The notes under the pieces: generated by a model | Databases searched by the model: none | Seen by the model: only the letters and a program-made list of their open reading frames with translations | What the model was told of the DNA's origin: nothing | In this document: positions 12,630 through 41,615 of the stretch, piece after piece | Position numbering within the stretch: the first letter of the stretch is position 1 | Layout: each line of letters starts with the position of its first letter | Made by a program: the position numbers and the translations under genes | Virus record (IMG/VR): IMGVR_UViG_3300009376_000001 | Length of the DNA stretch: 64,000 bases | Strand: one strand, 5' to 3' | Origin: a virus

Positions 12630-13025
12630 CTAATTACCGTATCCCCCGTAAGTCCTTCGTTCTCCGCTAGGCAACAATCCTGCTTGGCCTAGTTCTTTAA
12701 GAACATCATTGAATCCAGAATGATCAGCCATGATAGTACGCATTTCATTATCAGCTAAAGCTATCTGTTCTTTTAAATTTACAATAGTTTCTTCCTGTTC
12801 GTCAATCTTAGAAGTAAGTTCTCTAAATCTGTTATCCCAGATAGTATGAAGTCGTTCTACTTCACTATCTATCTGTTCGTGAATGCCTGTAACTTCTTCT
12901 TGTAATACATCTATTTGGCTGCCAGTACCTGTAACATCATTACGAAGAGTTAGTACCCAACCAATTAGACCAATCGCTATTATTATTAAAGGTATAACCG
13001 TAGCAATTAAACTTAATTTACTCAT
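12630..13025 (-). CDS. TM plus coiled-coil protein (lysis/spanin-like architecture)
   Basis: N-terminal TM helix then long coiled coil. Confidence 0.55.
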   Translation of the reverse strand: MSKLSLIATVIPLIIIAIGLIGWVLTLRNDVTGTGSQIDVLQEEVTGIHEQIDSEVERLHTIWDNRFRELTSKIDEQEETIVNLKEQIALADNEMRTIMADHSGFNDVLKELGQAGLLPSGERRTYGGYGN

Positions 13026-13426
13026 TACGGTAATCCATAAGTATTTGGTTCACGATCTTCCGCATCTTCCCCACCAATCGCAGATTGCTCTGTACGGTCT
13101 TCTCTACGAGGTCTAGCCTCTTCCTGCAGTTTCCGATTCTGCATTAAAGTTTGAATTGTATTTTGCAATTCAAACAGTAACGCCTTACCATATTCCATTT
13201 TCTCTAGATTTAAAACTAAATTATAAATCTCTAAAGCAGGACCAGAAGACGTGGCAGTATTTACGTCTTCTATTACAACAGCTTCAGATACAGCATCTTC
13301 AGATTTTTGTAAATCAATATGCAAGTCAGGATAATGCACCTGACCTACAGGATGCCAACGACTATAACCATCATGTTGATGGTGTCCGTCTTTTTGTAGT
13401 AATTTAGGTCGTCCTGCCCTACCCAT
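13025..13426 (-). CDS. Hypothetical protein with His-rich N-terminus and DLQKS motif
   Basis: Overlaps end of cca; HHQHDGYSRWHP. Confidence 0.6.
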   Translation of the reverse strand: MGRAGRPKLLQKDGHHQHDGYSRWHPVGQVHYPDLHIDLQKSEDAVSEAVVIEDVNTATSSGPALEIYNLVLNLEKMEYGKALLFELQNTIQTLMQNRKLQEEARPRREDRTEQSAIGGEDAEDREPNTYGLP

Positions 13427-14954
13427 TCACGTCCACCAAATTTAACATGTAATCCACATCATTCAAACCAATATCATGTCCAAGTAAAATATTTAAAGAA
13501 TCTTCTACTAACACACGTTCTAAATCAAGAGACTTTTCTAATTCTTCATCAGCTTTAGTATCAGCTACTATAGGAGCAGCTTCTGATTTTTTAACTAACG
13601 CTTTAACCTTTTTTACTAGATCTGGATCCCAATCCTTACCTTGTTTATGAGCAGCTGCATCCGCTTCCACAAGTTTAAAGAACCTATCGATATCGCCACC
13701 TAAAGTTAAAGCTAATTTCCTATATTCTTCAGGCTGTCCTTTAGTTCCAACTTTACTAACGAAGAGATGATTTTCAACTATATTAGTTACACGCTTTACT
13801 ACTGAAATAGGTATTCCTAAATCAGTAAGAGCCTTTTTAGTTATCTCTGCGCCCTTTTTATCGTGTCCAGGGAATGATTTCTGGTCATCCGTAGCAGTAT
13901 GAGGCTTTCCTATATCATGGAATAAAATAGCTAGATTTAGCACTAAATCATCTGACTGAGCATGTTTTAAGGCAGCAAGCGTATGTCCCCATACATCTTT
14001 CATATGCGTTGGGCCACGTTGCTTAAATCCTACCATTTTTTCTAAATCAGTACAAATATACTTTAATATATCATAATCAGCTAAGAATTTTAGGGATATC
14101 CACGGCTTTTCTGTCTGAATTATCTTAACTACTTCGTAACCAATACGACGTTTTTTAAGAGTTCCTACTTTTTCAGCCGTCTTTTTAACACCTGAAAGGA
14201 AAGTAGGATGCGGTTTTAGGGGATAATCAGCTAAAAATCTAGCTCCTCGTAAAATACGTGCAGGGTCAGATTCAAATGCCGTTACACTATCACTATTAGG
14301 AGAACGTAACCATTTCTTTTTTACATCTTCTAAACCACGAGTAGGATCATAAAACTGTCCAGTTACCGATTGAGCAATAGCATTAATAGTAAAATCTCTA
14401 CTACGGAGGTTTTCTAATAATTCCTCACCAGTAGTAGAGATTAAATCAACACGAATTCCTCCTATCATGAAAGACAATCGTGCGTGAGAGTTATTTTTTT
14501 CTTTAAACTCTATATTTAATTGCTTTAGGATATTTTTCGCTTGTTCTAAATCAACAGTTGCAACTAAATCTAAATCCTTAGATACTTTTTTAAAGAACTT
14601 ATCTCTGACATATCCTCCAACAAAATAAATAGGAAGATAATTACCTAAAGTTCTAATCCAATCAGCAGCCTTTTTCCGCTGCTCTAAATGTTCTGCTACC
14701 TTAGGATTTACCCAAGCAGTCCTAGCTCGTTCAAAAGTACGTCCACCACGATGAACAAGCTCATATATTTTCGTTCTGACTTTGCCTTTAGGGGTTTCAG
14801 GTGAACCTTTTTCACCAGGAGCTTGTTCTTCTAATCGATGTTTTTCGGCTCGTGGGTCATCGGCTGCCTCAGGACGATCATAAGATGGACCTACTTCCTC
14901 GTGTTTAGCGAGGAAGTAGTCCAACTTTAATAATGTGCGGTCAACTGAATCCAT
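13419..14954 (-). CDS. cca: Class II tRNA nucleotidyltransferase (CCA-adding/PAP family) with HD domain and ~95-aa N-terminal extension
   Basis: VGGYVRD, DLD, RDFTINAIA, DPARILRGARF, then H...HT...LFHDIGKP...GHD...H...D HD domain. Confidence 0.9.
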   Translation of the reverse strand: MDSVDRTLLKLDYFLAKHEEVGPSYDRPEAADDPRAEKHRLEEQAPGEKGSPETPKGKVRTKIYELVHRGGRTFERARTAWVNPKVAEHLEQRKKAADWIRTLGNYLPIYFVGGYVRDKFFKKVSKDLDLVATVDLEQAKNILKQLNIEFKEKNNSHARLSFMIGGIRVDLISTTGEELLENLRSRDFTINAIAQSVTGQFYDPTRGLEDVKKKWLRSPNSDSVTAFESDPARILRGARFLADYPLKPHPTFLSGVKKTAEKVGTLKKRRIGYEVVKIIQTEKPWISLKFLADYDILKYICTDLEKMVGFKQRGPTHMKDVWGHTLAALKHAQSDDLVLNLAILFHDIGKPHTATDDQKSFPGHDKKGAEITKKALTDLGIPISVVKRVTNIVENHLFVSKVGTKGQPEEYRKLALTLGGDIDRFFKLVEADAAAHKQGKDWDPDLVKKVKALVKKSEAAPIVADTKADEELEKSLDLERVLVEDSLNILLGHDIGLNDVDYMLNLVDVNG

Positions 14955-14959
14955 TTATC

Positions 14960-15127
14960 TTACTTATCAGTCTGAATGATGTCTTTTACCAAAGCTACAA
15001 TACCGCCAGTGGCTCCAGCAGCTATTTCAGTCTGGGTCATGAACATTGCATACCCAGCTACCCCACCCAAAATCACGACTGCCATAAATGCCTGGGGACG
15101 GATCTTATCTACTAGTTTAGCTAACAT
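14960..15127 (-). CDS. 55-aa two-TM membrane protein (holin-like), not in ORF track
   Basis: GAGG RBS; MLAKLVDKIRPQAFMAVVILGGVAGYAMFMTQTEIAAGATGGIVALVKDIIQTDK*; fills the gap exactly. Confidence 0.7.
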   Translation of the reverse strand: MLAKLVDKIRPQAFMAVVILGGVAGYAMFMTQTEIAAGATGGIVALVKDIIQTDK

Positions 15128-15139
15128 ACAACCTCTTAC

Positions 15140-15553
15140 TTATTTTTTGGCACGAGAATAGCGTTTGCTCTCCCCGCCCTTAATAGTTTGTAATTTATCT
15201 AATTCACGAAGAATTTCCTCGTGATCATCATCTGTAGCTTTCTTGGCTATAAACCCCGCTCCAGTTATAGCATCCAAAGCTTCTTCTTTATCGACATCCA
15301 TAATGACCGCACTATGGGACAATTCCTTCCCATCAGAACCGAGCGGGCGGAGAAATGTAAACATCTCTTCGAAGTACTCATTTCGCTCATCTTTAGTAAT
15401 CTGAGCGTGGAAGTTGCCAGTGGCATTCTCAGCAACTTGTCCTAAATAAGTACCTATCCCATCAAAAATAAACCATATCTCAGGATATTGGTCTTCTTCT
15501 TTTTCATCTTTATCATCATCGGCTTCTTCAGCCTTTAGTAATACGTCTTCCAT
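15140..15553 (-). CDS. Acidic hypothetical protein with N-terminal LLKA motif
   Basis: MEDVLLKAEE; TAATG coupling to upstream gene. Confidence 0.7.
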   Translation of the reverse strand: MEDVLLKAEEADDDKDEKEEDQYPEIWFIFDGIGTYLGQVAENATGNFHAQITKDERNEYFEEMFTFLRPLGSDGKELSHSAVIMDVDKEEALDAITGAGFIAKKATDDDHEEILRELDKLQTIKGGESKRYSRAKK

Positions 15554-15846
15554 TATAGCCCACCTTGCTTCTTTACTAATTCTCTAGCATCGTCAACTGG
15601 CATAATCTGTCCGATACCATGAGGATTCCGATGTATGACATTTAAGAAACCAAATAATTCGCTAGAAGGCATTGGGCCGTCATTTTCTTCAGCCCAAATA
15701 CTATCTGCAGCTTTAAAATCAGACTCTAACATCTCTTTAACACCTTCATGTTTAGAAAGAATCTTTCGATTACCTAAAACTACAGCATCTAATTCTAATT
15801 CAGCATCAAAATTTTTAATACTAGTTAATACCCATACGTCTGCCAT
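15553..15846 (-). CDS. Small protein downstream of kinase 1 (candidate immunity/regulator)
   Basis: GGAG RBS, own promoter; VVLGNRKILSK motif shared with the N-terminus of 28348-30339. Confidence 0.7.
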   Translation of the reverse strand: MADVWVLTSIKNFDAELELDAVVLGNRKILSKHEGVKEMLESDFKAADSIWAEENDGPMPSSELFGFLNVIHRNPHGIGQIMPVDDARELVKKQGGL

Positions 15847-15878
15847 AATTATACACTCCGAGATTTGATAGTACTAGT

Positions 15879-15908
15879 AGTATAACATAAAATACTACTA
15901 TAAGTCAA
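15879..15908 (-). promoter_or_regulatory. Sigma70-type promoter
   Basis: Reverse complement TTGACT-N18-TATACT with TG extension. Confidence 0.75.
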
Positions 15909-15910
15909 TG

Positions 15911-18649
15911 CTACCGTATACGGGGATCATTAAAATCTATGCCCATATCGGAGTCTTCATCGTCATCATCAAAATCATATGCTGACTGTCCACTAGGTCT
16001 AGAGCTAGACCGTCTACGTAAGTCATCAGAGGAAGGTTCTACATCTTCATCAACATCATCTAACTCTGCATCATCTGAAGGCGATCCAGCAGAAGCTCTC
16101 TCCGCACGAGGTACTGACTGTCCTCTACTAGGCTGAGCAGCACTGGCTGCGCCTACAGGCTCCGGTTCTGGCTCAGGTTCTGGAGTAGGTGTCTGTTGTC
16201 TAGGTGCTGATTGTCCACCTAATCCTCTTTCTGCATCGGGGTCATTAACATTAAGTGCGTCTTCCTCTATATTCGGCCTATTGCCTTCATCTTGTTGTGC
16301 TCCTTCTCGCTCTCGTAGTTGTCTTGCTAACTCTCTATCTTCTTCATCACGTAGAGCTTGTGAAGACCACTCAGATCCATCAGAAGACTCTGGAGCAGAT
16401 GCTAAGTCTTCCTCTGGCATTGAAGGTTCTTGATTGGTTTGATTCCAATTAATCTCTTCTTGAGCAGATTGTTCTTGTTCTGGAGGACTAGCTTGTCCGA
16501 AACTTAGACCCCAAACCCTACCTGCTTTATCAAGAAAATCTTGTTTAAATTCTTCAATAGTACTAAGATTATTAGCCTGTCCCATTCCAAATTCTGCTTT
16601 TAGACTTTGGAATTTATCAACAGAGAAGTGGTCTTCAAAAACAGCTTCAAGCTCAGCTTTAAGGTCTTCTCTGGACAAATCTCCAGGTTTTCTACCACTA
16701 TGTTGATTACGAGAAGTTGCTCCACCCCCTGTGGTAGCCATTAACTGCCCACGATTACTAGCTGACCTGGTAGGATCTCCATAATGTGCAAAATCTGAGC
16801 CGAATCCGCTGTCAATCTGGATACCTCTTCCGTTACTATCTACCATCCAGTTACCTGAATGTCTGTCCCAGTTTCCTGTTAACCAGTCATTAATCATCAT
16901 TTTATGCATATCATTACGGAAACCTTCATTGGCATACAAGCCTGACTTATTATTGTGGTTTCCCATATTTACACAATTAGGTTTACAGAACTCTTGGAGA
17001 TGTCCTCCACCACTAGCGATTGCATTACGTAAAGCTGTAGTTTGGGCATCATTAGGACTTAAACCTAATTTTTCAGCAATAGCATCAGCGGATATATTAC
17101 GGTTAATTGCAGTATCAGAGTTAATATTTAAATTAAATATCTTATCAATAGCTTCAGAAACTAATTCAGCCTTTTGCTCATTCTTTACGATTTTATATAC
17201 TACTTCAGAACCGTCATTAAGTTTTAAAGCTATTACTACACCTTCTTGGGCGTTGATACCGCCACCTAGCAATCGTGCTTCGGCGATATCACTATCATTA
17301 ACAGCTTTTAATCTTTCGTGATTAGCTTTTACTTCATCAGAAACACCATGTTTTTCGAACAAACTAACAGCTGCGTCTGCAAATTCCTGATTTATCTTCC
17401 TAGCTGCTGCTTGTTCTGCTTCTGACGGCCCTTCGTCCGGTTGACCTCTTCCTCCTCTCCGTTGTCTTCTTCGGAATAGGTCTTCAACACGCCGTACTTG
17501 TCTTGGATCTCTACGAGCAGGCTCTCGTCGTACAGGTGCGCCTTCTTGGTGAGGTTCTGGGCCTTCTTGTGCCAAACTGCCTTCGGCACCACGAGAAGCT
17601 GCACCAATATGAGGTCTTCTACCACGCATACCCAATGGGTCAGTGTGTGTCCATCGAGCTAATCGGCGGTTAGCTACATCCTCATCACTTATTTCCCCAA
17701 AAGTAATAATCATGGGGTCTTTACGACCTGGAGGCAAACTGATCATTTGTCCCTTTTCTCGTAGTTCTTGTTCCATAGAACCAACAATCCACGGGACTTT
17801 AGGGATTCTAACTAAATGAGCTACTGCTCCTCCGTGCTTATCAAATAATGCCCTATCACGGCGATTCTCACGGCCTGGACGACGAATATTGCCTCCCGCA
17901 GGCATACGTACTATTTCTCCCTTACGTACTTCTGCTTTAGGAACAGCTATAAAACGACGAGCATATATGTTCTGTTTTAGACGAACTCGTTTACCATCTG
18001 GTGTAATACGAGAACTACGTAGGAATTTCTTTGCCTTCTCTCCCTTCTTTAAGTCCATAAAGTTAGGAGCAGCCGGATTACCTTTAGCGTCTTCCCATAA
18101 GCCGTCAATATCATCAAGCTTAGTATCATGTTGTTCATTAAGAATATTACGGATTTCTATAGCTTGACGGTCAAGAACATGTTCCCACTCTTCCGTGCCA
18201 TCTTTTAGACGCTCTGCACGGTCCATATATTCCTGAAGCATGTTCCATTTATCCTGTTTGAACCCTGCATAAGGAATAAAATACGGAAGTTCTCCCATAT
18301 TAATCATGTCAATCATCTGATTGTAGCGATTGTGAATAACATGAGCTTCTGCCCGATATTCATTTAATTTGACTATCAAGTCAGAAAGTTCCTGTTTGGA
18401 CATATTCTGCATTTCTTCTTTAGTAAGGCCCGCACCAGGGAACATGCGTTTAGGATTTACCCAACGAATGGCTCTGGTAACCATAGGACGAGGAACTTTA
18501 CGATGAATAGTCCTATACATAGGAACTAGATGAGGATATCTAGCATGCGCTAATTGCAGTAGTCCTTTCGTAAGAGAAGTTAACTCATTAATAGAGACTT
18601 CAACTGCAAAATCATCAATTTTATTAGTTAAATCTATCGGACTAGTCAT
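15911..18649 (-). CDS. Large multidomain protein with PI3/PI4-kinase-like (HipA-related) kinase domain
   Basis: LGGGIN..VYK..E...D...HLQEF...DWLTGNWDRHSGNWM...IDSGFG; long acidic disordered C-terminus. Confidence 0.8.
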   Translation of the reverse strand: MTSPIDLTNKIDDFAVEVSINELTSLTKGLLQLAHARYPHLVPMYRTIHRKVPRPMVTRAIRWVNPKRMFPGAGLTKEEMQNMSKQELSDLIVKLNEYRAEAHVIHNRYNQMIDMINMGELPYFIPYAGFKQDKWNMLQEYMDRAERLKDGTEEWEHVLDRQAIEIRNILNEQHDTKLDDIDGLWEDAKGNPAAPNFMDLKKGEKAKKFLRSSRITPDGKRVRLKQNIYARRFIAVPKAEVRKGEIVRMPAGGNIRRPGRENRRDRALFDKHGGAVAHLVRIPKVPWIVGSMEQELREKGQMISLPPGRKDPMIITFGEISDEDVANRRLARWTHTDPLGMRGRRPHIGAASRGAEGSLAQEGPEPHQEGAPVRREPARRDPRQVRRVEDLFRRRQRRGGRGQPDEGPSEAEQAAARKINQEFADAAVSLFEKHGVSDEVKANHERLKAVNDSDIAEARLLGGGINAQEGVVIALKLNDGSEVVYKIVKNEQKAELVSEAIDKIFNLNINSDTAINRNISADAIAEKLGLSPNDAQTTALRNAIASGGGHLQEFCKPNCVNMGNHNNKSGLYANEGFRNDMHKMMINDWLTGNWDRHSGNWMVDSNGRGIQIDSGFGSDFAHYGDPTRSASNRGQLMATTGGGATSRNQHSGRKPGDLSREDLKAELEAVFEDHFSVDKFQSLKAEFGMGQANNLSTIEEFKQDFLDKAGRVWGLSFGQASPPEQEQSAQEEINWNQTNQEPSMPEEDLASAPESSDGSEWSSQALRDEEDRELARQLREREGAQQDEGNRPNIEEDALNVNDPDAERGLGGQSAPRQQTPTPEPEPEPEPVGAASAAQPSRGQSVPRAERASAGSPSDDAELDDVDEDVEPSSDDLRRRSSSRPSGQSAYDFDDDDEDSDMGIDFNDPRIR

Positions 18650-18663
18650 AGTGACTCCATATT

Positions 18664-21600
18664 CTAGGCATCGGTCTTAAAAGCATCTGGGCTTCCATAT
18701 TCTCCACTGGAAGGAGTGGCAGATTCTGGAGGCTTAGGAGTAGATTGTGGAGCCTGTGTAGACTCTTTTTTACGAGGTTTTGCAGCTTCTCTAAAAGCTC
18801 TACCCATATGTCCAGCCAAAGAAGCAAAAGGATTACCGCCTGACTTTTCAACGTCATCAGCCTTCTGAGTGCTCCTAGGCTGTACATGACGATCGTAATC
18901 TACGCCTTCTTTAGGCTTTCTTTCTGGCTCTCCAGACTCAATTACACTGGGGGCCGGAGGAGTACCGACTCTAACATCAGGTTTCTTTCCTCCGAAAATG
19001 CCCTTTTCTAATTTCTCAATAGTATTGTCTAAATGTTTAAAAACATCAGATACTTCGGAATTAGACGTAATAGCTATCTCAGAAATATTACTATCTAATT
19101 TATGTAATATCTCAGCTATATGGACTTCTCTATCGTCCTCTGCTCTTCTAGCTTTTACTTCAGCTTCATCAGCTTTAGCTTTAGCTACACGAGCTTGAGC
19201 TTTAGCAGAGCGAGCCTTAGAATGCTGTTGCACACGCTTAGCACTCGCTACTTCATTTTCCATTGCTTTCTGATATTGGTCTTTTTGAGGAGAGGCCATT
19301 TCATTTTCTCCAGCTTTATCTATACGTGCAGGTTGTTCCCGTTGCGGTTCTTGCTCCAGATAAGCTTTGTCTCCACCAGCTTCCTGCATCCGTTGCTGCA
19401 CTGCAGCACGTTGCCCTCTTAATCGCTCTTTTTCTTCCGGTGTAGGCTCTCTTACCGGAGGTGGCGGAGGCGGTGGTGGGTCATCTGGCTCTGGTTTTGT
19501 CGTAGGTTCCGGCTCTGGCTTAGTTGTATCGTCCTTAGTAGGGCCATTTTCTTGCTGGTCACGAACAGCAGCAGCTTCTTTTCTAGAATAATATCTAGCT
19601 CGTTTTCCGTCTTTACCTCTACGCTCTGCTGTATACTCCTGAACGCCTTTAGGAGGCTGATCTCCAGGCTGTAAATATTCACGATCACTAGTAGAAACAG
19701 CTGACTGACTTTTTTCGCCAGTTTCTCTCTGCACGGTACGCATCATCGGCTGCCCATCTGGTCCTATAGCAGGATTACCTTGTGAATCCAATATAGGTTC
19801 TTGTGTCGGAGCAGATAATTCAGGTCGATCTTGAGCATGCAGTCTGGCTTCACCTTGTTCTCCCTGAGATTGTCCAGCCCCTTCACCAGATGCATCCTTA
19901 GAGCGTCCTCGCTCTCCCATCATCCGTTCACCTATGCCTGTAAGAAGTCCTCCAGCCCCTTGAACTTTCTCAGGAACATATTTTTCAATATTTTTATTTA
20001 ATTTACGCCGTAAAATATGACCACCATACCGATCTGGAAAGCCTTCCCCAGGAGGCATGGCATCTTTATTTCCTTTAACTATCTCATCAAGATGTGCTCT
20101 AACAGCGTCTAATGATACTCCAGTTTTATCACGTGCAATGGCTTCAATAGAATCCTCTGCCTTAGCAAAATCAACCATTGCTTTTTCAAGAGCATCACTA
20201 CGAGGATTAACAGGAACTTTAGCTATTATGTCATTCCCATCGTCATCCACTCCAGTACGATAATCCCGTGTGATGACATTCCCTTTGTCATCAACAGCTA
20301 CTTCAGGCATATTCATAGCCTTAGATATAGCATCATCGTATTTAGCGTCAGCACGAGCCATCATAGTGACTAATTTTCCACGTTCATTCCAATACCCACG
20401 AGGATCTTGTCTATATAATTCACTATTAGGAGCACGATATTTAACTCCACCTAGTGTATGTGCTCCAAAATATTGCCCTTTTTCCCAACCCTCGTTCCAA
20501 CCTGATGACCATGCCTTACCCCATTCGGAAAACATTCCACCTAAACCACTTTTAGCTTCGGCGTTACCTCTCCAAAAAGAACTTCCAGGCTTCTCATTAT
20601 TAGAACTATCGGCTCCATGTGTGGGATGATTAGCAACCCGCACACTACTTTCTTTCACAACTCGTTTTACATCATCGATACTTCTAACTTTTCCGCCAAG
20701 TACACTAGTAAAAATAGACTTAGCCATACCCCACGGAGAATTAGCAATTACGCTAGGAAGATCGTCTGCCTCATTTGCATCTGATACATCAAATAAATCA
20801 CTGGCATTATGTCTCAATGATTCTTCAATAAAGTTTTCATCAATACCATTTTCTTCTAAATTAGATAAACTATTCTTTTCATATTCAGCTGCAAATTTTT
20901 CTTTATCCTTTGTAGTAGGCTCCATACGGGTCATTGGCCCTCTGAAGTCCTGCTTTACATTCTCATTAAGCCATTTACGTCGATTCTTAGGGGTAACATC
21001 AACTCCTGCAAGCTGAGCATCACGGCCCATTGCTTTATCGACGATTAATTTCTCACCATTTCGGACAGCAGCACCAAAATTCTTGACTCGTTCTCCACCT
21101 TTAACAGTCTTGAATTTACCTTTACCACCTTCACGTTGCTCTATCTTGAAAGATTTACCATCAGGATTCATCTTAATACGGACTTGAATATCAACGCCTG
21201 CATCTTTACCGACGTTCATACGCAAACCATTACGAGGAAACGCTTGTCCTACTATTTCACTAGTAGACTTACCTTCCGCCACTGCCGAAGCAACCGCATC
21301 AGCTTGCTGAGCAAAGGCACTCATTAATTGTTTTACAGGCTTAGGAGGTGCGCCTTGAGTACGTTGTCTACGTCCTCCTCCCTCAGGAGCAGGTTGGTCA
21401 AAGCCCAATCCTTTCATCATGTCATTATAAATAGGTTGTAAGAAATCTAGATTCTCTCCTACTTTGACATGTTCTTTCTTTAAATTATTATAAACATCTC
21501 TTACGCCTCTAGCATAAACAGCCCGTTCTTGTTCTGCAGGAGTAAGACTATTAGGGTCAGCATTAACGAGTGCCTCACCCTCAGAACTTAATTCAAGATC

Positions 21601-21792
21601 GTCTTTCTTACGTCTAGCAGCTTTATCTAAATAATTATCAGTTATTAATGGAATGCCAGCTTCAGAATACGGAATATTAATAATATTCTCAAAACGATCA
21701 ATAACGTCATTAAGAGCAGAAAAAACTAAAAGCTCTTCCTGCTCTTTAGTAAGCAAATCTAATTTATGTAAAATTCGCTCTTCAGTCGTCAT
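18664..21792 (-). CDS. Large portal-adjacent protein, probable internal head/ejection protein
   Basis: 1042 aa, coupled to portal stop; low complexity, poly-Pro; several LxK[AGS] sites; shares YL.P...PP...RRG...YY module. Confidence 0.65.
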   Translation of the reverse strand: MTTEERILHKLDLLTKEQEELLVFSALNDVIDRFENIINIPYSEAGIPLITDNYLDKAARRKKDDLELSSEGEALVNADPNSLTPAEQERAVYARGVRDVYNNLKKEHVKVGENLDFLQPIYNDMMKGLGFDQPAPEGGGRRQRTQGAPPKPVKQLMSAFAQQADAVASAVAEGKSTSEIVGQAFPRNGLRMNVGKDAGVDIQVRIKMNPDGKSFKIEQREGGKGKFKTVKGGERVKNFGAAVRNGEKLIVDKAMGRDAQLAGVDVTPKNRRKWLNENVKQDFRGPMTRMEPTTKDKEKFAAEYEKNSLSNLEENGIDENFIEESLRHNASDLFDVSDANEADDLPSVIANSPWGMAKSIFTSVLGGKVRSIDDVKRVVKESSVRVANHPTHGADSSNNEKPGSSFWRGNAEAKSGLGGMFSEWGKAWSSGWNEGWEKGQYFGAHTLGGVKYRAPNSELYRQDPRGYWNERGKLVTMMARADAKYDDAISKAMNMPEVAVDDKGNVITRDYRTGVDDDGNDIIAKVPVNPRSDALEKAMVDFAKAEDSIEAIARDKTGVSLDAVRAHLDEIVKGNKDAMPPGEGFPDRYGGHILRRKLNKNIEKYVPEKVQGAGGLLTGIGERMMGERGRSKDASGEGAGQSQGEQGEARLHAQDRPELSAPTQEPILDSQGNPAIGPDGQPMMRTVQRETGEKSQSAVSTSDREYLQPGDQPPKGVQEYTAERRGKDGKRARYYSRKEAAAVRDQQENGPTKDDTTKPEPEPTTKPEPDDPPPPPPPPVREPTPEEKERLRGQRAAVQQRMQEAGGDKAYLEQEPQREQPARIDKAGENEMASPQKDQYQKAMENEVASAKRVQQHSKARSAKAQARVAKAKADEAEVKARRAEDDREVHIAEILHKLDSNISEIAITSNSEVSDVFKHLDNTIEKLEKGIFGGKKPDVRVGTPPAPSVIESGEPERKPKEGVDYDRHVQPRSTQKADDVEKSGGNPFASLAGHMGRAFREAAKPRKKESTQAPQSTPKPPESATPSSGEYGSPDAFKTDA

Positions 21793-23666: not shown

Positions 23667-25633
23667 TAAATCGTTCCTATTATTTCTTTTAGTGAGTATT
23701 CATCGGGTGCACGAGAAATTACCCAATCTGAACCTTGTTTTTCCCATTTAGAAGCACAAACCAAACACATTCGCCAATATGCTTCCTCATTATCAAAGAC
23801 TCTATTTTGTAATTCGTCAGTATATTCTATACCACCGACACGGTTACATACAACACATATATCAGAACTGCTACTAACTATGCGTTCTTGGACAGCATCG
23901 CGTCCCCACCCTGCATTAGTGGGAGTTTTTAAAGGATTTCTTGCTTTTTCATTTTGAGATGTTTGATTATTATTAGGATTTTCAAAAAATCCATTAACTC
24001 CACCCATACTTCGCATACTAGTAAGAGTACTATGTTCTTTTAATACACCATGAACCGCTCCTACTACCGCATCTGCTCGATCTTTCTTCATTCCTGGCCT
24101 AGCTTCGATTTTATCTCCATAAACAACATCTAAGCCAAGAATCTCTTCTATAGTCTCTTTATCAAAATATCCATCTAATTTTTCTTGATAAATTAAATCC
24201 TTAAAAGTATCGTAAGCTTCACGACTACTTCTACCTATAGATTTATATTTAGCAGGAATACCAAATTTAGCTAACGTCTGTAACGAACTAACGGACTGAT
24301 AGTTATCATACGTTACGCTAACAATTCGGTATCCTTTATCACGTAAGCCTAAGATGAAATTTTCAATAGAGGAAAAATCTACATCATATTCAGGATCAGG
24401 TTCCCAAATCTTTATTAAATCAATTATTACATGTTCTTCGCCCTGATGAGCGATACAGACAGCAGCATTAGCATGTCTTAATCCTAAGTCAACGTGAATA
24501 AAGTATTTAATTCCCGCCTGTAGACCAGCTTCTTCTCTAATTTCTTTCAATCTAGCCCAAGTTATTTGACCTACTTCATCTATATCTGCGTCAAATGCAC
24601 GTAGAATAGGCAATGAATCTTTTATATATGCATCCCGTGCAAATGGAGGGTCACATTCATAACGAGCACGAGCTAGAACAGGATCCGTTTCATAAAAATC
24701 AATAAAGTCTTCTTTCTTCTTAGAAGGATTAAACTCCCAAGTGGCAAAAGGCGTACCTCCTTCTTTACAAGAAACAAAGGTACGATTCTCTGTCTTACCA
24801 TTGGTAAACCGTCGTTGAATAAATGATCCCTTAAAACGAGGCCAAGATAAACAGATAACCTTACCAACACCTGGGAAACGAGACTGAATCAAAGCCTTAG
24901 CGGTGTTATACACACCTTCGGCTCCCTCACTACGCAAAGAATGACTACGTTGTAGCTCTTGTTCACTCTTAAATGCATCAATCTCATCAAGAATAATCAA
25001 GATAGGGGTATAACCCTGCCAAGACTCATTTTCAGAGTTACCCGAAATAAGGCGTATATTCTTAGGAAATGTAACAGTCTGCTGAGTAATACGAGAGGAA
25101 ATATACTGAGGTAAAGTATCGTCAGTAAATAAAGGAGCACTACGTAAAATATTAGACAAAGTGCTGAAGTAAATGTTACGGGCGATATCCGCATTCTGGG
25201 CCACATTTATCGAATCAATAAAGCTGTTACTGTCCATCCCAAAATATACTTGAGGATTCTTAAGACAGTGAAGTAAATACACTATACGTAAACCAATTAA
25301 TATAGAACACGTATCCTTACCAGAGCCTTGACCTGCCATTAACACACTTTCAGTAAAGAAAGGCGGGTCAAATATATTAGATGTGTTATAAACAAAATCA
25401 ATCTGAGGCTGAGACAGTCTCATAGTTAGATTCAAATACTCTTCGCCATAGAGAAAAGTTTCTAAATCAACTGGAGTAAAACTCCAAATATCATCTTCGG
25501 ACTCGCTAACAGTATCCTCAGTAGCTACAAGACTAGGATCGTTAAGCAGAGAGCCTAGTATTGTAAAGTCTACCAAGGGCTGTGAGTTTGACTCCGAGCC
25601 TTTGGAGGGTTTCTTGGTCTGTAACTTCTTCAC
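23666..25633 (-). CDS. terL: Terminase large subunit
   Basis: Walker A GQGSGKD, Walker B IILDEID, LSWPR motif III, RNase H-like HVDLG...YDNYQS...KDRADAV; C-terminal CxxC...CxxC; true start may lie a few codons downstream. Confidence 0.9.
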   Translation of the reverse strand: MKKLQTKKPSKGSESNSQPLVDFTILGSLLNDPSLVATEDTVSESEDDIWSFTPVDLETFLYGEEYLNLTMRLSQPQIDFVYNTSNIFDPPFFTESVLMAGQGSGKDTCSILIGLRIVYLLHCLKNPQVYFGMDSNSFIDSINVAQNADIARNIYFSTLSNILRSAPLFTDDTLPQYISSRITQQTVTFPKNIRLISGNSENESWQGYTPILIILDEIDAFKSEQELQRSHSLRSEGAEGVYNTAKALIQSRFPGVGKVICLSWPRFKGSFIQRRFTNGKTENRTFVSCKEGGTPFATWEFNPSKKKEDFIDFYETDPVLARARYECDPPFARDAYIKDSLPILRAFDADIDEVGQITWARLKEIREEAGLQAGIKYFIHVDLGLRHANAAVCIAHQGEEHVIIDLIKIWEPDPEYDVDFSSIENFILGLRDKGYRIVSVTYDNYQSVSSLQTLAKFGIPAKYKSIGRSSREAYDTFKDLIYQEKLDGYFDKETIEEILGLDVVYGDKIEARPGMKKDRADAVVGAVHGVLKEHSTLTSMRSMGGVNGFFENPNNNQTSQNEKARNPLKTPTNAGWGRDAVQERIVSSSSDICVVCNRVGGIEYTDELQNRVFDNEEAYWRMCLVCASKWEKQGSDWVISRAPDEYSLKEIIGTI

Positions 25634-26350: not shown

Positions 26351-26400
26351 CTTATCTCCATATTATATCAAATTATTAAATATTTAGGTAATTTTAAAAA

Positions 26401-27131: not shown

Positions 27132-27186
27132 AAATCCCCTCCAACCCGCACAGGATGCTTAATACTATAACATAATAATATATTAT

Positions 27187-28169: not shown

Positions 28170-28189
28170 ACGTTCTCCTATTACCCTGC

Positions 28190-28219
28190 ATTATACCCTA
28201 AATACTATTCCGAAGTCAA
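28190..28219 (-). promoter_or_regulatory. Sigma70-type promoter for acidic protein-thyX
   Basis: Reverse complement TTGACT-N18-TATAAT. Confidence 0.75.
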
Positions 28220-28348
28220 TACTTTTCGGGCTTCTCGTCGTTCTTTTCTACGCTTATCGGCATCACATGGGCCACACAATGCAGGCAAATATCGCTTTGA
28301 CTGCTTACGTCCACACTTCTGACACTTCTTCCAGCTTGTAGGAGCCAC
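28205..28348 (-). CDS. 47-aa basic Zn-finger protein, not in ORF track
   Basis: GTG overlapping topoisomerase stop (TAGTG): MAPTSWKKCQKCGRKQSKRYLPALCGPCDADKRRKERREARKVLTSE*. Confidence 0.6.
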   Translation of the reverse strand: MAPTSWKKCQKCGRKQSKRYLPALCGPCDADKRRKERREARKVLTSE

Positions 28349-30339
28349 TATTTCTTCTTCCTCTTAACAGGTTTACGCTTGCCTTTGGCTTTAACCGGAG
28401 CCTTATCTTTATTCTTTAACTTTTGCTGAGCAACTTTAACATCAGCTGCAGGGAACCTAGAACGTAATAGCTTATCTACATCCCCATCAAATGAAATATC
28501 CCAATCTTTAAAAACTTGAGGATCAATATATTGAGCTACACAAACTTGTTTAGTATTACTTAATTGGTCTGAAATAGGCTCACCAATTACATCTAATTTA
28601 AGTTTATTACGTTCTTTTAATGCCCATAAAAAAGCTTCTTCTTTCCACTCTTGGGCATTAGTAATAGCTCCGTTATTAACCCGTCGCTTCATGAAAGCAT
28701 CAAATTTCTTTCTATCTAACTTAGGTATCTTAGTCTTCGACACTAAATCGGCTGCTAATCGAGTAGCATGATAAGTACGGAAGTTCTTTACACTAAAATC
28801 ACCATCCGCTGCTTGCTTTAAATAAGCATTAACCGCAGGAGGACTAACATTTAGCACCGTAGCTGTCTTATCTTTACCTGCTGCTTTACGGCGAGCAATC
28901 AATTCATTCTTAACTAATGGGTCAGTAACTTCCACATTATTTAATTTACCGGATTTACCTAAGAAATTAAGATAAACTTTCTTACCTTTAATTATTATAT
29001 GCTGCGCCTGAAAGCTAGTTACTCCAAAAGTAGAAACATATTCTCGTATAAACTTGCCATCTTTATCTTTTTTAGGGCCAGGTCGTCCTTCTTCTCCGTC
29101 CCAAACAACTTTAGATTCACCACTACCGACTCGACGATAAGTATTATGAATCAGAGCAAGAGCTAATGCTGCTTCTTTATTACGTCCGTTATTCTGGATA
29201 TCTTGTTTACAACTCTTTTCAATACGAGAGATACTTTTAGCTAATTTTTTAATCTTCTCAAATTTCTTAATAGCTTGACCTTTAGTATGCTCTACACTGT
29301 AGCCAGCATGTTGTCGTCCTTTACCATCAATCCAAGCTACTTGAACCTTATCATCTGAATCGGTACTAAAGAATAAGTGCTGCTTGCCTCCACGGTCAGG
29401 ATTCTCTGGGTCAAACTCCTGAACGGCCTGTAATTGTCCGTCAGCGGTGGTTATATTAACCACTTTACCGTCTTCATTAACTACCGCTATATTAGGAGTA
29501 ATAGGAGTTGCATCTGTTTGTGGGCCTTTTCCTTCCAAGGCTGCCTGTCTAACTAATTCTTTTTTCTGGTCTACAGAAATTTTAGGTAATGTTTGAATTA
29601 AGTCATCTAATGGACGGAAGCCCTGTTCTTTCATTTTTGCAATAAAAGATTCAGCATCAATCTTATCGCCAATAATGCCTTGCCCTTCATTCTCGTCTTC
29701 ATCGTCATCTACGTTTTCATCAACATTTACCATTCCAACGTCTTCAGGAGCTTGTACACCTTCAATAGGTCGAGCAGCTTCTGGCTCTAAAGGACGCTCT
29801 AGTGTACCTAATTTGCCTATCTCAGAAGGAAAATATCCTCGTGCTCCACGACGAGTTGTGTGTACTTGTGTATTCTCTGGAGGTTTTTCACCAGAGCCTA
29901 AGTATTCTAATCGCTCTCCCCGTTCTGCTTTAACTAAATATTCTAAAGCAGTCTCAAGTACTAATAACTTCGATAAATCCGCACTCTTTTGTATATCAGA
30001 ATTAGTTAATTTATCTACTTGCTCATCCGTAATAAAGTACGCACGGAATACGGGATTCTGAAAGCGAGTATATGTCTGATATAAAAAGAATCCATCAGAC
30101 ATCTTGCCTTCTTCATCCGACATGCTAAGGTCTGTTCCTAGTTGCTTGGAATGCTCTTTAAAGAAAGCATCACCACTAGCTTGTAGACGTTCTCGTAGGC
30201 TTTTATCTACCCAAGATATATGATTCTCTGCCTTGGAAATGGAACGAGCGATTTCATCCGGCTCTTTAGATAGAATCTTACGAGAAGGCAAGACAATATA
30301 AGCTAAGTCTTTTTGGTTATATATAGTAACAGCAGGCAT
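28348..30339 (-). CDS. DNA topoisomerase IB (bacterial/poxviral type) fused to N-terminal extra domains
   Basis: RRVGS(R), FGVTS, FLGKSGK(K), KNFRTYHAT(R), LSNT..VC..QYIDP(N,Y) catalytic pentad; start reassigned to ATG 30339 (TAATG coupling). Confidence 0.88.
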   Translation of the reverse strand: MPAVTIYNQKDLAYIVLPSRKILSKEPDEIARSISKAENHISWVDKSLRERLQASGDAFFKEHSKQLGTDLSMSDEEGKMSDGFFLYQTYTRFQNPVFRAYFITDEQVDKLTNSDIQKSADLSKLLVLETALEYLVKAERGERLEYLGSGEKPPENTQVHTTRRGARGYFPSEIGKLGTLERPLEPEAARPIEGVQAPEDVGMVNVDENVDDDEDENEGQGIIGDKIDAESFIAKMKEQGFRPLDDLIQTLPKISVDQKKELVRQAALEGKGPQTDATPITPNIAVVNEDGKVVNITTADGQLQAVQEFDPENPDRGGKQHLFFSTDSDDKVQVAWIDGKGRQHAGYSVEHTKGQAIKKFEKIKKLAKSISRIEKSCKQDIQNNGRNKEAALALALIHNTYRRVGSGESKVVWDGEEGRPGPKKDKDGKFIREYVSTFGVTSFQAQHIIIKGKKVYLNFLGKSGKLNNVEVTDPLVKNELIARRKAAGKDKTATVLNVSPPAVNAYLKQAADGDFSVKNFRTYHATRLAADLVSKTKIPKLDRKKFDAFMKRRVNNGAITNAQEWKEEAFLWALKERNKLKLDVIGEPISDQLSNTKQVCVAQYIDPQVFKDWDISFDGDVDKLLRSRFPAADVKVAQQKLKNKDKAPVKAKGKRKPVKRKKK
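29815..29985 (-). repeat. Duplicated 57-codon leader/module, copy 2
   Basis: SADLSKLLVLETALEYLVKA...TQVHTTRRGARGYFPSEIG; 40/57 aa identical to copy 1. Confidence 0.9.
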
Positions 30340-31892
30340 TAACGACGTACTCCTTGTCTTGGCCCACCCTGTAGATGTGCAGGAGTATCGCCACCCCATC
30401 CCATTTCTCCATCATCTACCGGATCTGCACCTTTCCAATCCCTATTTCGATCCCTATCTCCAGGCTGGGAACTAACAGGGAAGCTTTCCCACCCAAATCC
30501 ATCAGGGGAGAATGGGGTTGAACCATAACCATAGCCTGCTCTTCCGCTAACAGCATCTCCCATTAATCGATTAACTTGGATTGTATATAAATTTTTAAAC
30601 CTATCGATATCTAAATTATCTGCTTCCCAATTAACTGCGCCTAAAGCAGCAGAGAGAGTATCTTCATCAAAATATTTATCAAATACATCTAGAGCTTCTT
30701 GTTCTAATCCGGTACGAATTTGTATCTTTTCTTCGTCCGTAAGAAGCTCATCCAAATGATCCCTATATCTATAAGGAAAATCTAAGCCAACATCTCTAGA
30801 AATTTCATGTAATTCGATATGTGCTGTTCGATCATGAGGGAAAGAATGAGCCATACGTCCCGCAAATCCATTATCAATAGCTAAAATCTTATGATCAGCT
30901 GTAATCATATAATTACCAGTATGCCTATCAGGATTACCTGTAATAGCATCTAATAATATAAGTTTAAGAAATTCTTCTCGCCCCTCTTTACTAGCTAACA
31001 TTTCAGCAACAGCCGAAATAGAATCATCTCTAGAAAGACAATTTTCACAAAACTCTTGAAAATGTCCGGCAGCCTGAGAACCTAAAGAATTCTCTTTTAT
31101 CTTATCGACTTCGGCTCTATCCAACCCACCTGGATCACCCCATTCGTCAACAGATGTCCCATGATCAGGATGAGTATCCGTAAATACTTTCAATAACCGC
31201 TCAGGATCTATCGAATGCGGTTGTACATACGGAACTAAATTCAACCCCAACGCTCTATCAACACTATATGCAAGCATCTCAGACCTGTTATCGCCTTTAT
31301 CATGAGAAGCTTTAAATATAAACTTTTTACCTGCTACTTCAACAGTAAAATTAGCATATGAAGTGATTCCCAGACCTGAATCCGTCGCTGAACCTTCATC
31401 TGAACCATCGGTAAATCCCGCTTTAGTTAAATTCTCAGAGGTTAAATCCGCAGGATCAATAGAACTTCCTAAGAATGGCTGATGTTCCCCAATAGCGTCC
31501 CTTAAATCCGCATACATATTTTCAAATTGGGCATTAACTTGCTCTCTAGTTGCCCAAGCCGAATCTCTCGTATCATCAGAGGAACTATCAGGAGTAACTA
31601 CTTCAATCTCTCGTTCTTCTTCAGGCAACTCAGCTAAGCGACGGACTTCTTCACGAATACCTTCTTCTGTATCAGGCGGTATAGTAAGTCTATCTAATGC
31701 GTCATCTATTTCTGTAGTGCCAACTTCAGAGGGATAATATCCACGAGCACCACGACGAGTAGTATGCACCTGTGTATCTTCTGGAGGACGTTGAGTAGGA
31801 CTAAGATACTCAAGTTTCTCCCCAGGTGTAGCTTTCAACAGATGCTCTAATACCGTCTCAAGAGTTAAAAGTTTTGTTAAATCGGTAGACAT
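30339..31892 (-). CDS. PI3/PI4-kinase-like (HipA-related) kinase with N-terminal leader module
   Basis: GLGIT...FIFK...SEMLAYSVDRALGLNLVP...HFQEF...DAITGNPDRHTGNYM...AIDNGFA. Confidence 0.85.
   Translation of the reverse strand: MSTDLTKLLTLETVLEHLLKATPGEKLEYLSPTQRPPEDTQVHTTRRGARGYYPSEVGTTEIDDALDRLTIPPDTEEGIREEVRRLAELPEEEREIEVVTPDSSSDDTRDSAWATREQVNAQFENMYADLRDAIGEHQPFLGSSIDPADLTSENLTKAGFTDGSDEGSATDSGLGITSYANFTVEVAGKKFIFKASHDKGDNRSEMLAYSVDRALGLNLVPYVQPHSIDPERLLKVFTDTHPDHGTSVDEWGDPGGLDRAEVDKIKENSLGSQAAGHFQEFCENCLSRDDSISAVAEMLASKEGREEFLKLILLDAITGNPDRHTGNYMITADHKILAIDNGFAGRMAHSFPHDRTAHIELHEISRDVGLDFPYRYRDHLDELLTDEEKIQIRTGLEQEALDVFDKYFDEDTLSAALGAVNWEADNLDIDRFKNLYTIQVNRLMGDAVSGRAGYGYGSTPFSPDGFGWESFPVSSQPGDRDRNRDWKGADPVDDGEMGWGGDTPAHLQGGPRQGVRR
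31719..31889 (-). repeat. Duplicated 57-codon leader/module, copy 1
   Basis: STDLTKLLTLETVLEHLLKA...TQVHTTRRGARGYYPSEVG. Confidence 0.9.
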
Positions 31893-35300: not shown

Positions 35301-35301
35301 T

Positions 35302-40818: not shown

Positions 40819-40819
40819 T

Positions 40820-41614: not shown

Positions 41615-41615
41615 T

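What the first reader, a model, noticed from the sequence alone, without database searches (positions are those of the whole stretch)
13025..31892. Candidate head-packaged effector arsenal with shared leaders and LxK|[A/S/G] processing sites
Seen: unrelated proteins around terminase and portal begin with similar helical leaders: MDSVDRTLLKLDYFLAKH (CCA), MTTEERILHKLDLLTKE...YLDKA (1042 aa), MSTDLTKLLTLETVLEHLLKA (kinase 2), DIQKSADLSKLLVLETALEYLVKA (inside topo IB), DLTNKID...SLTKG (kinase 1) and MEDVLLKA. Further sites are LDSLVKA (portal), ELEKS, KLEKG, DVEKS and DLQKS at domain borders. Known: prohead proteases cleave internal head proteins at short consensus sites, and some large phages mature their capsid after Lys. 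Inference: a 'leader + cut site + targeting module + enzyme' grammar loads a tRNA-repair enzyme, two kinases and a topoisomerase into the capsid for co-injection.
Basis: partly seen in the sequence, partly recalled or inferred. Interest (0 to 1): 0.88.

Follow-up and report, generated by a model that had tools for sequence, protein, structure and literature searches.

The report
Lysine-flanked cargo tag on phage enzymes
Several unrelated enzymes encoded around this large marine phage's portal gene carry a small, undescribed helix-plus-hairpin tag flanked by lysine sites like the HK97 capsid cut site. The tag probably loads them into the capsid for delivery with the DNA, but no cutting or packaging has been measured.

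Summary
All quoted peptides are present, but only part of the "shared leader" claim holds statistically. Kinase 2 and topoisomerase IB share a true 58-residue module of a helix plus a beta-hairpin (z = 36). The 1042-aa post-portal protein holds a third hairpin copy. The leaders of CCA, kinase 1, the 137-aa protein and the portal are only weakly alike.

A profile of the module finds 106 protein clusters among 1.8 billion proteins. Most are 600-2000-aa multi-enzyme proteins with 2-5 copies set between TopoIB, PI3K-like or zeta kinases, CCA enzymes, ADP-ribosyltransferases, acetyltransferases and SAM lyase. Five begin with an S78 prohead protease. Cultured haloarchaeal viruses HVTV-1/2 carry the hairpin on gp113, gp115 and gp116, next to the portal.

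Hydrophobic-x-Lys-[Ala/Ser/Gly] flanks the module far above background (41% against 3-4%) and has the form of HK97's capsid cut site (FNK|S). It is 2.4-fold enriched in the window's candidate proteins (P 2e-5), but not in replication or tail proteins. Elsewhere CCA, kinase and TopoIB are fused pairwise through the module.

Capsid-loaded, protease-cut cargo is the best reading (about 0.5). The capsid and protease genes lie outside the window, and several quoted sites are not conserved. This scan noted similar lysine-cut cargo polyproteins before, in Mx1-like phages.

The parts
30339..31892 (-). Kinase 2 (517 aa), a weak PI3/PI4-kinase-like protein. Its stop overlaps the TopoIB start (TAATG).
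   Evidence: Pfam PF00454 E 1.1e-3; orthologs and fused forms; junction sequence
31713..31892 (-). Module copy 1 (kinase 2 residues 1-60): amphipathic helix ending LLK|A, then the hairpin. The natural N-terminus lies in the same register as the internal copies have after K|S.
28348..30339 (-). Topoisomerase IB, 663 aa from the corrected start (Met 21 of the 683-aa ORF). Order: a small N-terminal domain related to the 97-aa protein, then the module, an acidic linker and the TopoIB core.
   Evidence: Pfam PF01028 E 2e-19; orthologs align from residue 21, and a 663-aa ortholog exists; 97-aa similarity z 4.2
29809..29994 (-). Module copy 2, internal to TopoIB: the IQK|S site, a helix ending LVK|A, then the hairpin.
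   Evidence: AlphaFold2 model: helix plus three short strands, core pLDDT 80-92
18664..21792 (-). Post-portal 1042-aa protein of unknown fold. It sits where HVTV-2 has gp113.
   Evidence: no Pfam or PHROG hit; synteny with HVTV-2; no atlas lead
19585..19692 (-). Hairpin copy 3, inside the 1042-aa protein (residues 701-736).
   Evidence: general motif HMM, domain E 2.3e-7 against eight window proteins and 3.1e-5 against all ORFs
21789..23666 (-). Portal protein. Its closest isolates are the Haloarcula tailed viruses.
   Evidence: phrog_18178 E 7e-43; tblastn 24-26% identity to HVTV and HCTV portals
23502..23525 (-). Conserved portal N-terminal site LDSLVK|A (residues 48-55), upstream of the conserved portal body.
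   Evidence: 5 of 6 orthologs keep the full motif and 6 of 6 keep the Lys
15911..18649 (-). Kinase 1 (912 aa), with a PI3/PI4-kinase-like core at residues 538-616. The N-terminal 70 residues hold a helix and a basic motif shared with CCA, but the LTKG site is not conserved.
   Evidence: Pfam PF00454 E 2.8e-7
15140..15846 (-). The 97-aa protein (a paralog of the TopoIB N-terminal domain) and the acidic 137-aa protein that begins with LLK|A.
13419..14954 (-). CCA-adding enzyme (PolyA_pol head domain plus HD domain).
   Evidence: Pfam PF01743 E 7e-15 and PF01966; phrog_2244 E 3e-46
14697..14954 (-). CCA N-terminal extension (residues 1-86): a helix ending in Lys, a linker and a basic motif. It occupies the position of a canonical module in homologous fused CCA proteins. 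It is not itself a significant HMM match.
13422..13547 (-). CCA C-terminal LEK|S site followed by a helix. In relative L003 a full hairpin and a further domain of about 270 aa are inserted here.
13025..13426 (-). 133-aa protein with a fully conserved LQK|S at residues 39-42 (window 13301-13312).
23666..25633 (-). Terminase large subunit. It has no [LIV]xK[ASG] site and serves as an internal contrast.
   Evidence: phrog_2 E 5e-13

Best explanation
The window belongs to an uncultured siphophage of about 150 kb. Its replisome is bacterial, while its portal is most like those of haloarchaeal tailed viruses.

Three of its proteins (kinase 2, TopoIB, the 1042-aa post-portal protein) carry an undescribed mini-domain of about 55-60 residues. 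It consists of an amphipathic helix ending in an invariant Lys, followed by a short beta-hairpin of the form basic-x-Tyr-hydrophobic ... Pro ... Gly-x-Arg-Gly-Gly-x-Tyr-Tyr. CCA, and less surely kinase 1, carry degenerate versions.

Most likely mechanism:
1. The genes are expressed with the head genes.
2. The mini-domain docks each enzyme inside the assembling prohead, on the scaffold, the capsid inner face or the protease.
3. The HK97-type (S78) prohead protease cuts after Lys at the hydrophobic-x-Lys|Ala/Ser/Gly sites that flank the helix. This separates fused enzymes and trims the tags.
4. The enzymes leave with the DNA and act before any phage gene is expressed.

Shown here: the module, its family-wide spread, the conserved Lys sites, the fusions to prohead protease, and the pairwise fusions among the same enzymes.

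Inferred: binding inside the prohead, cleavage, packaging, ejection and the early roles of the enzymes.
For: 1. Kinase 2 and TopoIB share a 58-residue module (z 35.8). It is conserved in relatives L001, L003, L005 and L008.

2. A profile search of 1.84 billion proteins gave 106 clusters at E <= 1e-3. Many are 600-2000 aa long, with 2-5 copies spaced 300-600 residues apart.

3. Pfam on 60 of these proteins found TopoIB in 12, DUF192 in 11 and PI3/PI4 kinase in 7. It found zeta toxin in 3, ATLF zincin in 3, CCA plus HD in 2, GNAT in 2 and Peptidase_S78 in 2. It also found ART, a portal and SAM lyase. No Pfam family covers the module itself.

4. Five representatives start with an S78 or HVTV-like protease domain followed by modules. 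P0065 runs protease, module, zeta toxin, module. P0073 runs protease, modules, SAM lyase.

5. Gene context: the module protein lies directly upstream of protease and capsid genes in L096, near S78 and capsid genes in L097, and just after the protease in L099. In HVTV-2, gp113, gp115 and gp116 next to the portal and MuF genes carry the hairpin.

6. Among 137 internal hairpins, position -2 is Lys in 63% (background 7%), -1 is A/S/G in 54% and -4 is L/I/V in 54%. The full motif lies within 8 residues upstream in 58 of 140 copies, against 2.8% of background windows.

7. Of 29 internal helix-type copies, 12 have a second such site just upstream (background 4.2%). Twelve N-terminal copies start in the same register.

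8. The HK97 capsid protein is cut at FNK|S. The sequence is shown, and the cleavage itself is established knowledge.

9. Enrichment in the window is 31 observed against 13.1 expected, P 1.8e-5, with flat controls.

10. Fusion ('Rosetta stone') evidence links the window's enzymes. P0061 runs module, CCA, module, kinase. P0116 runs module, CCA, module, TopoIB. L008 runs module, kinase-2-like, module, TopoIB. P0120 and P0122 join ART-PolyVal to TopoIB.
Against: - No proteomic or biochemical data exist for any member.
- The window's own capsid, scaffold and protease genes are outside the window and could not be fetched.
- The invariant Lys sits at the C-terminal end of a predicted helix in a compact fold, so it may be conserved for structural reasons.
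- The residue after Lys varies within the close family (A, S, M, W, Q).
- Kinase 2 and TopoIB lie between ribonucleotide reductase and ThyX, away from the portal.
- The CCA and kinase 1 N-termini are not significant matches.
- Two of five unrelated contexts showed no head genes.
- Enzymes of 50-100 kDa would have to unfold to pass through a siphovirus tail.
Confidence: 0.5

Rival explanations
1. The mini-domain is a docking or oligomerisation unit of cytoplasmic multi-enzyme proteins that act inside the infected cell. It might bind DNA, RNA or a common partner. The proteins are never packaged, and the Lys and its neighbours are conserved for folding, not cutting.
For: - The model shows a compact helix-plus-hairpin fold with the Lys at the helix end.
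- Kinase 2 and TopoIB sit among nucleotide-metabolism genes.
- TopoIB, CCA and DNA ligase have obvious intracellular roles.
- L098 and L100 show no head genes nearby.
Against: - Five representatives are fused to the prohead protease, which by definition resides in proheads.
- Module genes cluster with portal, protease and capsid genes.
- The module crosses from bacterial phages to archaeal viruses together with the head module, which argues against a host-specific partner.
- A second Lys site upstream of the helix, outside the fold, is also enriched.
Confidence: 0.25
2. The proteins are packaged polyvalent proteins, but they are separated by associated zincin-type metallopeptidases or delivered uncut. 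This is what Iyer et al. (2017) proposed for polyvalent proteins. On this reading the Lys motif is not the prohead protease's site.
For: - ATLF-like zincin domains occur in 3 of 60 module proteins and in relative L005 just upstream of kinase 2.
- PMC5512222 describes processing by zincin-like peptidases and uncut packaging of the N4 virion RNA polymerase.
Against: - The window has no zincin gene among the proteins scanned.
- The motif has the form of the HK97 S78 cut site.
- S78 fusions are as frequent as zincins.
- PMC5512222 itself assigns assemblin-like peptidases in polyvalent proteins a role in virion processing.
Confidence: 0.12
3. The 'leaders' and LxK sites are chance features of Lys- and Leu-rich helical segments, plus one local duplication between two neighbouring genes.
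For: - Most leader pairs are not significant.
- Several listed sites are not conserved.
- The protein set was chosen after the motif had been seen.
Against: - 106 independent clusters carry the module.
- Conservation is position-specific upstream of 137 copies.
- Arg, Glu and reversed-motif controls are flat.
- The window's enzymes are found fused to one another in other viruses.
Confidence: 0.05

Closest known systems
Polyvalent proteins of phages and conjugative elements (Iyer, Burroughs, Anand, de Souza, Aravind 2017, PMC5512222)
   Same: - Multi-enzyme polypeptides with swappable effector domains (ART, kinases, GNAT, zincins), encoded by phages and proposed to travel with the DNA.
- Some carry assemblin-like (prohead) peptidases.
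- Two module proteins carry the paper's own ART-PolyVal domain, PF18760.
   Different: - The helix-hairpin module and its Lys flanks are not in Pfam, and my term searches of that paper (processing, cleav*, linker, topoisomerase) turned up no such module.
- Here the protease sits at the N-terminus, whereas the paper reports it at the C-terminus.
- TopoIB, CCA enzyme and PI3K-like kinases dominate the domain set.
- In this window the system is split into single-enzyme genes.
T4 capsid targeting sequence and internal proteins (IPI-III, Alt), cut by gp21 at Leu/Ile-x-Glu
   Same: A short N-terminal address followed by a prohead-protease site of the form hydrophobic-x-charged residue. It loads unrelated proteins into the head for injection (background in PMC10052503 and PMC12991175).
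   Different: - The protease family differs (S78/HK97 type against T4 gp21).
- The cut follows Lys instead of Glu.
- The tag is a folded unit of about 55 residues that also occurs internally and repeatedly.
- Nothing has been shown experimentally here.
HK97 capsid maturation by the gp4 (S78) protease
   Same: The cut site FNK|S has the same form as the conserved flank of the module. S78 domains are fused to module proteins.
   Different: HK97 is not known to package enzymes. The protease of this window's phage was not seen.
MuF (SPP1 gp7-like) polymorphic toxins of temperate phages (PMC5576092)
   Same: A conserved head-associated N-terminal part with variable C-terminal enzymes, encoded next to the portal. 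HVTV-2 has a MuF gene between its two module genes.
   Different: No MuF domain was detected in the window's proteins. The tag is much smaller and is repeated.
'Lysine-cut capsid cargo polyproteins' noted earlier in this scan in Mx1-like phages (e1-5699987, e1-5629193, e1-5325393)
   Same: Enzyme modules joined by hydrophobic-x-Lys|Ser/Ala, and a link to the prohead protease.
   Different: - The phage lineage differs: the portal here matches only haloarchaeal viruses.
- Here the site is part of a defined folded module shared with cultured archaeal viruses.
- Those notes were not re-tested here.

Membership tests
Polyvalent proteins (Iyer et al. 2017) | Two or more unrelated effector or enzyme domains in one polypeptide of a phage or plasmid | tested here: inconclusive
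   Met in relatives: L008 kinase-like plus TopoIB, P0061 CCA plus kinase, P0116 CCA plus TopoIB. In the window each gene has a single enzyme. TopoIB does carry an extra small N-terminal domain.
Polyvalent proteins (Iyer et al. 2017) | Domains from the family's repertoire (ART-PolyVal, zincin MPTase, MuF, assemblin-like peptidase, LPDs) | tested here: met
   Among module proteins: PF18760 ART-PolyVal, ATLF zincin, Peptidase_S78, zeta toxin and GNAT. None of these was found in the window's own proteins.
Polyvalent proteins (Iyer et al. 2017) | Delivery into the host with the DNA | not testable with these tools
   Needs virion proteomics or injection assays.
Substrates of an S78 (HK97-type) prohead protease | Cleavage site of the same form as the phage's own capsid maturation site | tested here: inconclusive
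   The form matches HK97 FNK|S. HVTV-like capsid proteins have conserved hydrophobic-x-Lys-Ala near the N-terminus. The window's own capsid gene was not available.
Substrates of an S78 (HK97-type) prohead protease | An S78 protease encoded by the same genome | not tested
   It lies outside the window. An earlier unchecked note (e1-5763164) places it 22-30 kb beyond the window end. Searches of relatives found none.
Substrates of an S78 (HK97-type) prohead protease | Observed cleavage | not testable with these tools
   No proteomic data are available.
T4-type capsid targeting sequence proteins | An N-terminal leader sufficient for head incorporation and removed by the prohead protease | not testable with these tools
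   Only the architecture is analogous. Twelve family members start with the helix in the same register as the internal copies.
MuF polymorphic toxins | N-terminal Phage_Mu_F domain (PF04233) | tested here: not met
   No PF04233 hit in any of the 17 proteins scanned at E <= 0.01. No phmmer hit of HVTV-2 gp114 to window ORFs.
Type IB topoisomerase | Topoisom_I catalytic core | tested here: met
   PF01028 E 2.1e-19, residues 454-578 of the 683-aa ORF.
CCA-adding enzyme / tRNA nucleotidyltransferase | PolyA_pol head domain, RNA-binding domain and HD domain | tested here: met
   PF01743 E 6.7e-15, PF12627, PF01966; phrog_2244 E 2.6e-46.
PI3/PI4-kinase-like kinases | Catalytic-loop region matching PF00454 above the curated cut-off | tested here: inconclusive
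   Kinase 1 scores 31.1 bits against a cut-off of 27.1. Kinase 2 scores 19.4 bits, below the cut-off. Only the catalytic-loop segment aligns.

The most novel reading that the evidence does not exclude
The helix-hairpin unit is a universal capsid-interior address. It would be shared by a lineage of HK97-fold viruses spanning bacterial phages and haloarchaeal or marine archaeal tailed viruses. It would work as a scaffold mimic, binding the capsid or scaffold inner surface, and would then be trimmed at its lysine flanks by the S78 protease. Any enzyme placed behind it would be packaged and injected. That would amount to a natural, programmable protein-delivery code, testable in the cultured viruses HVTV-1 and HCTV-1.
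Probability: 0.3. Interest if true: 0.8.

Novelty: new variant of a known kind. Interest (0 to 1): 0.66.

Why it matters
- Outside T4, P1, N4 and the jumbo phages, few phages have a known rule for which proteins ride in the capsid. A short, recognisable tag with a defined cut-site form would let packaged effectors be predicted from sequence alone in uncultured viruses.
- The predicted cargo here includes a tRNA 3'-end repair enzyme, kinases, a topoisomerase and, in relatives, SAM lyase, ADP-ribosyltransferases and zeta toxins. That points to a pre-made counter-defence kit.
- The tag occurs in cultured haloarchaeal viruses, so virion mass spectrometry could test the idea directly.
- If it holds, the tag could also be used to load foreign proteins into capsids.

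Tried and rejected
- **Complex prediction:** Complex prediction of the window portal with the module returned no verdict. It counts neither for nor against binding.
- **Joining the other leaders to the module:** hhalign of the CCA and kinase-1 N-terminal alignments against the module found only fragments of 5-8 residues. Relaxed HMM searches also failed for CCA, kinase 1, portal, p133 and p137.
- **Looking for capsid and protease genes in the window:** Pfam, PHROGs and PDB sequence searches of candidate ORFs found none.
- **Looking for them in relatives:** PF05065 and the HVTV-2 capsid and protease proteins gave no hits in five related contigs. A neck-protein search gave only one weak hit.
- **Walking beyond the window end:** this gave 6 kb of fibre genes. 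A fibre-like query then returned 80 unrelated loci, and an exact-pattern walk hit another phage's fibre gene.
- **Other searches with no result:**
  - HK97 portal, protease and capsid proteins run by jackhmmer against the module proteins gave no hits.
  - A PDB search with an HVTV-like capsid protein gave none.
  - ESM Atlas look-ups for the 1042-aa protein and the kinase-1 N-terminal region gave no usable lead.
  - tblastn of TopoIB against isolated phages gave only two core-domain hits and none over the module.
- **Capsid N-terminus as a module homolog:** the HVTV-like capsid N-terminus looks a little like the module by eye, but the HMM does not support it.
- **HVTV-1 virion proteome:** the paper (J Virol 87:3248, PMC3592136) is not held, and the GenBank record carries no virion notes.
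Full report
**What the window is.** All genes from 9975 to 64000 run on the minus strand. The order along that strand is:
- tail genes;
- a bacterial-type replisome (DnaB, DnaG-type primase, clamp, PolA, UvsX, Cas4-like exonuclease, RuvC);
- ribonucleotide reductase;
- kinase 2, TopoIB and ThyX;
- small and large terminase, then the portal;
- a 1042-aa protein, kinase 1, a 97-aa and a 137-aa protein, the CCA-adding enzyme, and small ORFs.

The portal's only matches among 50,697 phage records are Haloarcula tailed viruses, at 24-26% identity. A related contig of 105 kb is rated 69% complete, which implies a genome of about 150 kb. No capsid or prohead-protease gene is in the window. DNA just beyond position 64000 encodes fibre proteins. 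Earlier unchecked notes place the head genes 22-30 kb further on.

**Checking the observation.** The quoted peptides are all present.
Kinase 2 residues 1-58 and an internal TopoIB segment align without gaps (score 216 against 27 +/- 5 for shuffles, z 35.8).
- CCA and kinase 1 share a short basic motif (z 3.3, 2 of 500 shuffles).
- Every other pair of leaders is within noise. Profile comparison does not join them to the module.
- A third copy of the hairpin half lies at residues 701-736 of the 1042-aa protein, not at that protein's N-terminus.
- The TopoIB ORF was called 20 codons too long. Orthologs align from Met 21, a 663-aa ortholog exists, and that ATG overlaps the kinase 2 stop as TAATG.
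- So the module is internal in TopoIB. It sits behind a small domain related to the 97-aa protein that follows kinase 1 (z 4.2), and directly after an IQK|S site.
- Kinase 2's natural N-terminus is in the register that cutting at that site would produce.

- [LIV]xK[ASG] occurs 31 times in the nine candidate proteins against 13.1 expected (P 1.8e-5). Replication, metabolism and TerL proteins show 17 against 15.3, and tail proteins 5 against 8.5.
- Arg, Glu and reversed-motif controls show nothing. The protein set was picked after the motif had been seen, so this is supportive rather than decisive.
- Ortholog alignments separate conserved sites from unconserved ones. Conserved: TopoIB IQKS and LVKA, kinase 2 LLKA, portal LVKA, CCA LEKS, p133 LQKS, p137 LLKA. 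Not conserved: kinase 1 LTKG, and the 1042-aa LDKA, VEKS and most other sites in that protein.

**What the module is.**
- In relatives the same genes are often fused. L008 has one 1370-aa ORF reading module, kinase-like, module, TopoIB. L003 has X, DUF192, module, kinase. L005 has an anthrax-lethal-factor-like zincin just upstream.
- A profile of nine module copies, searched against 1.84 billion representative proteins, found 106 clusters at E <= 1e-3. Many are long proteins with 2-5 copies.
- The hairpin half is the widespread part. It reads basic-x-Tyr-hydrophobic, a Pro-rich turn, then Gly-x-Arg-Gly-Gly-x-Tyr-Tyr.
- Pfam on 60 of these proteins shows a varied enzyme set: TopoIB, DUF192, PI3/PI4 kinase, zeta toxin, zincin, CCA plus HD, GNAT, ART, SAM lyase, rubrerythrin, S78 protease and a portal. 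No Pfam family covers the module itself.
- AlphaFold2 with a 41-sequence alignment gives one helix packed on three short strands, with core pLDDT of 80-92. The invariant Lys is the last helical residue.

**The lysine flanks.**
- Upstream of 137 internal hairpins from 70 clusters, position -2 is Lys in 63% (background 7%), -1 is Ala/Ser/Gly in 54% and -4 is Leu/Ile/Val in 54%.
- The full motif lies within eight residues upstream in 58 of 140 copies, against 2.8% of background windows.
- N-terminal hairpin copies begin one residue before the basic residue.
- In the helix-bearing subfamily, 12 of 29 internal copies have a second such site just before the helix (background 4.2%). Twelve proteins start exactly at the helix.
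- The HK97 capsid protein, the textbook S78 substrate, is cut at FNK|S (sequence).

**Link to the capsid.**
- Five module proteins begin with an S78 or HVTV-like prohead protease domain. P0065 continues with a zeta toxin and P0073 ends in a SAM lyase.
- In L096 a four-module protein lies directly upstream of a protease and capsid gene pair that matches HVTV-2 (capsid E 1e-160). In L097 module proteins, one containing a DNA ligase, sit beside S78 and capsid genes. In L099 the module protein follows the protease. L098 and L100 show no head genes.
- In cultured HVTV-2, the genes after the portal are gp113 (hairpins at the N-terminus and at residues 86-140), a MuF protein, gp115 (zeta toxin plus ART, hairpin at 9-50) and gp116 (two hairpins). 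The protease and capsid genes follow.
- The literature held here calls the role of these zeta toxins unknown (PMC4284463) and does not describe the module.

**Link among the window's enzymes.**
- P0061 is module, CCA, module, PI3K-like kinase.
- P0116 is module, CCA, module, TopoIB.
- A 1770-aa ORF in the 105-kb relative is module, CCA, module, unknown, module.
- P0120 and P0122 join ART-PolyVal, a signature domain of Iyer's polyvalent proteins, to TopoIB.
- In these fused CCA proteins a canonical module occupies the place of the window CCA's 86-residue N-terminal extension.
- In L003 a full hairpin and an extra domain are inserted at the window CCA's C-terminal LEK|S.
- The window therefore holds a split-up version of a module-joined enzyme set.

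**Reading.**
- Best explanation (about 0.5): a capsid-loading and processing cassette. The mini-domain docks cargo in the prohead, the S78 protease cuts after the flanking Lys, and the enzymes leave with the DNA.
- Main rival (0.25): a folded docking unit of enzymes that are never packaged, with the Lys conserved for structural reasons.
- Smaller rival (0.12): packaged proteins that are cut by zincins or not cut at all.
- Chance explains only some of the listed sites.
- The portal-module complex job gave no verdict.
- This scan has reported lysine-cut cargo polyproteins before, in Mx1-like phages. Those notes were not re-tested. What is new here is a defined folded tag, absent from Pfam, that is shared with cultured archaeal viruses.

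Noticed in passing
window 30337-30399: The TopoIB ORF is over-called by 20 codons. The real start (Met 21) overlaps the kinase 2 stop as TAATG, which suggests translational coupling of kinase 2 and TopoIB. The two are one fused ORF in relative L008.
   Followed up: yes
window 15553-15846 and 30040-30339: The 97-aa protein after kinase 1 and the N-terminal domain of TopoIB (after kinase 2) are paralogs that share an RKILSK core (z 4.2). So each kinase is followed by the same small domain, of unknown function. In L003 a DUF192 domain sits at the equivalent place, before a module.
   Followed up: partly
window 21789-23666 versus 34369-43952: The portal matches only haloarchaeal Druskaviridae among isolated phages, yet the replisome is bacterial (PolA, DnaB, DnaG-type primase, clamp). 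The genome joins an archaeal-virus-like head module to a bacterial replication module.
   Followed up: partly
L011:1-6298 (DNA just beyond window 64000): At least five consecutive fibre-like genes reuse the same sequence blocks, and one has a Peptidase_S74 chaperone domain. They lie between the neck genes and wherever the capsid genes are.
   Followed up: partly
L102:1-2475: The ribonucleotide reductase of the closest relative appears to contain an intein-like insertion that is absent from the window's reductase (32003-34264).
   Followed up: no
L003:17138-19504: In this relative the CCA enzyme is 789 aa. A full module plus an unknown domain of about 270 aa is inserted at the LEK|S site near the window CCA's C-terminus, and the same short C-terminal tail follows a second IEK|S.
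   Followed up: partly
P0091, P0097, P0093 and the neighbour of P0045: DUF5661 (PF18905) recurs directly after the S78 protease domain in module proteins. It may be a scaffold-related or head-related domain.
   Followed up: no
L009:33342-34715 and L096:9290-10717: HVTV-like capsid proteins share conserved hydrophobic-x-Lys-Ala and Tyr-Leu-Ala-Lys sites within their first 40 residues. These are candidate maturation sites, but no mature N-terminus is known.
   Followed up: partly
window 13025-13426 and orthologs: The 133-aa protein has a His-rich basic N-terminus, a fully conserved LQK|S, and an invariant C-terminal REPNTYGLP. Its function is unknown.
   Followed up: no
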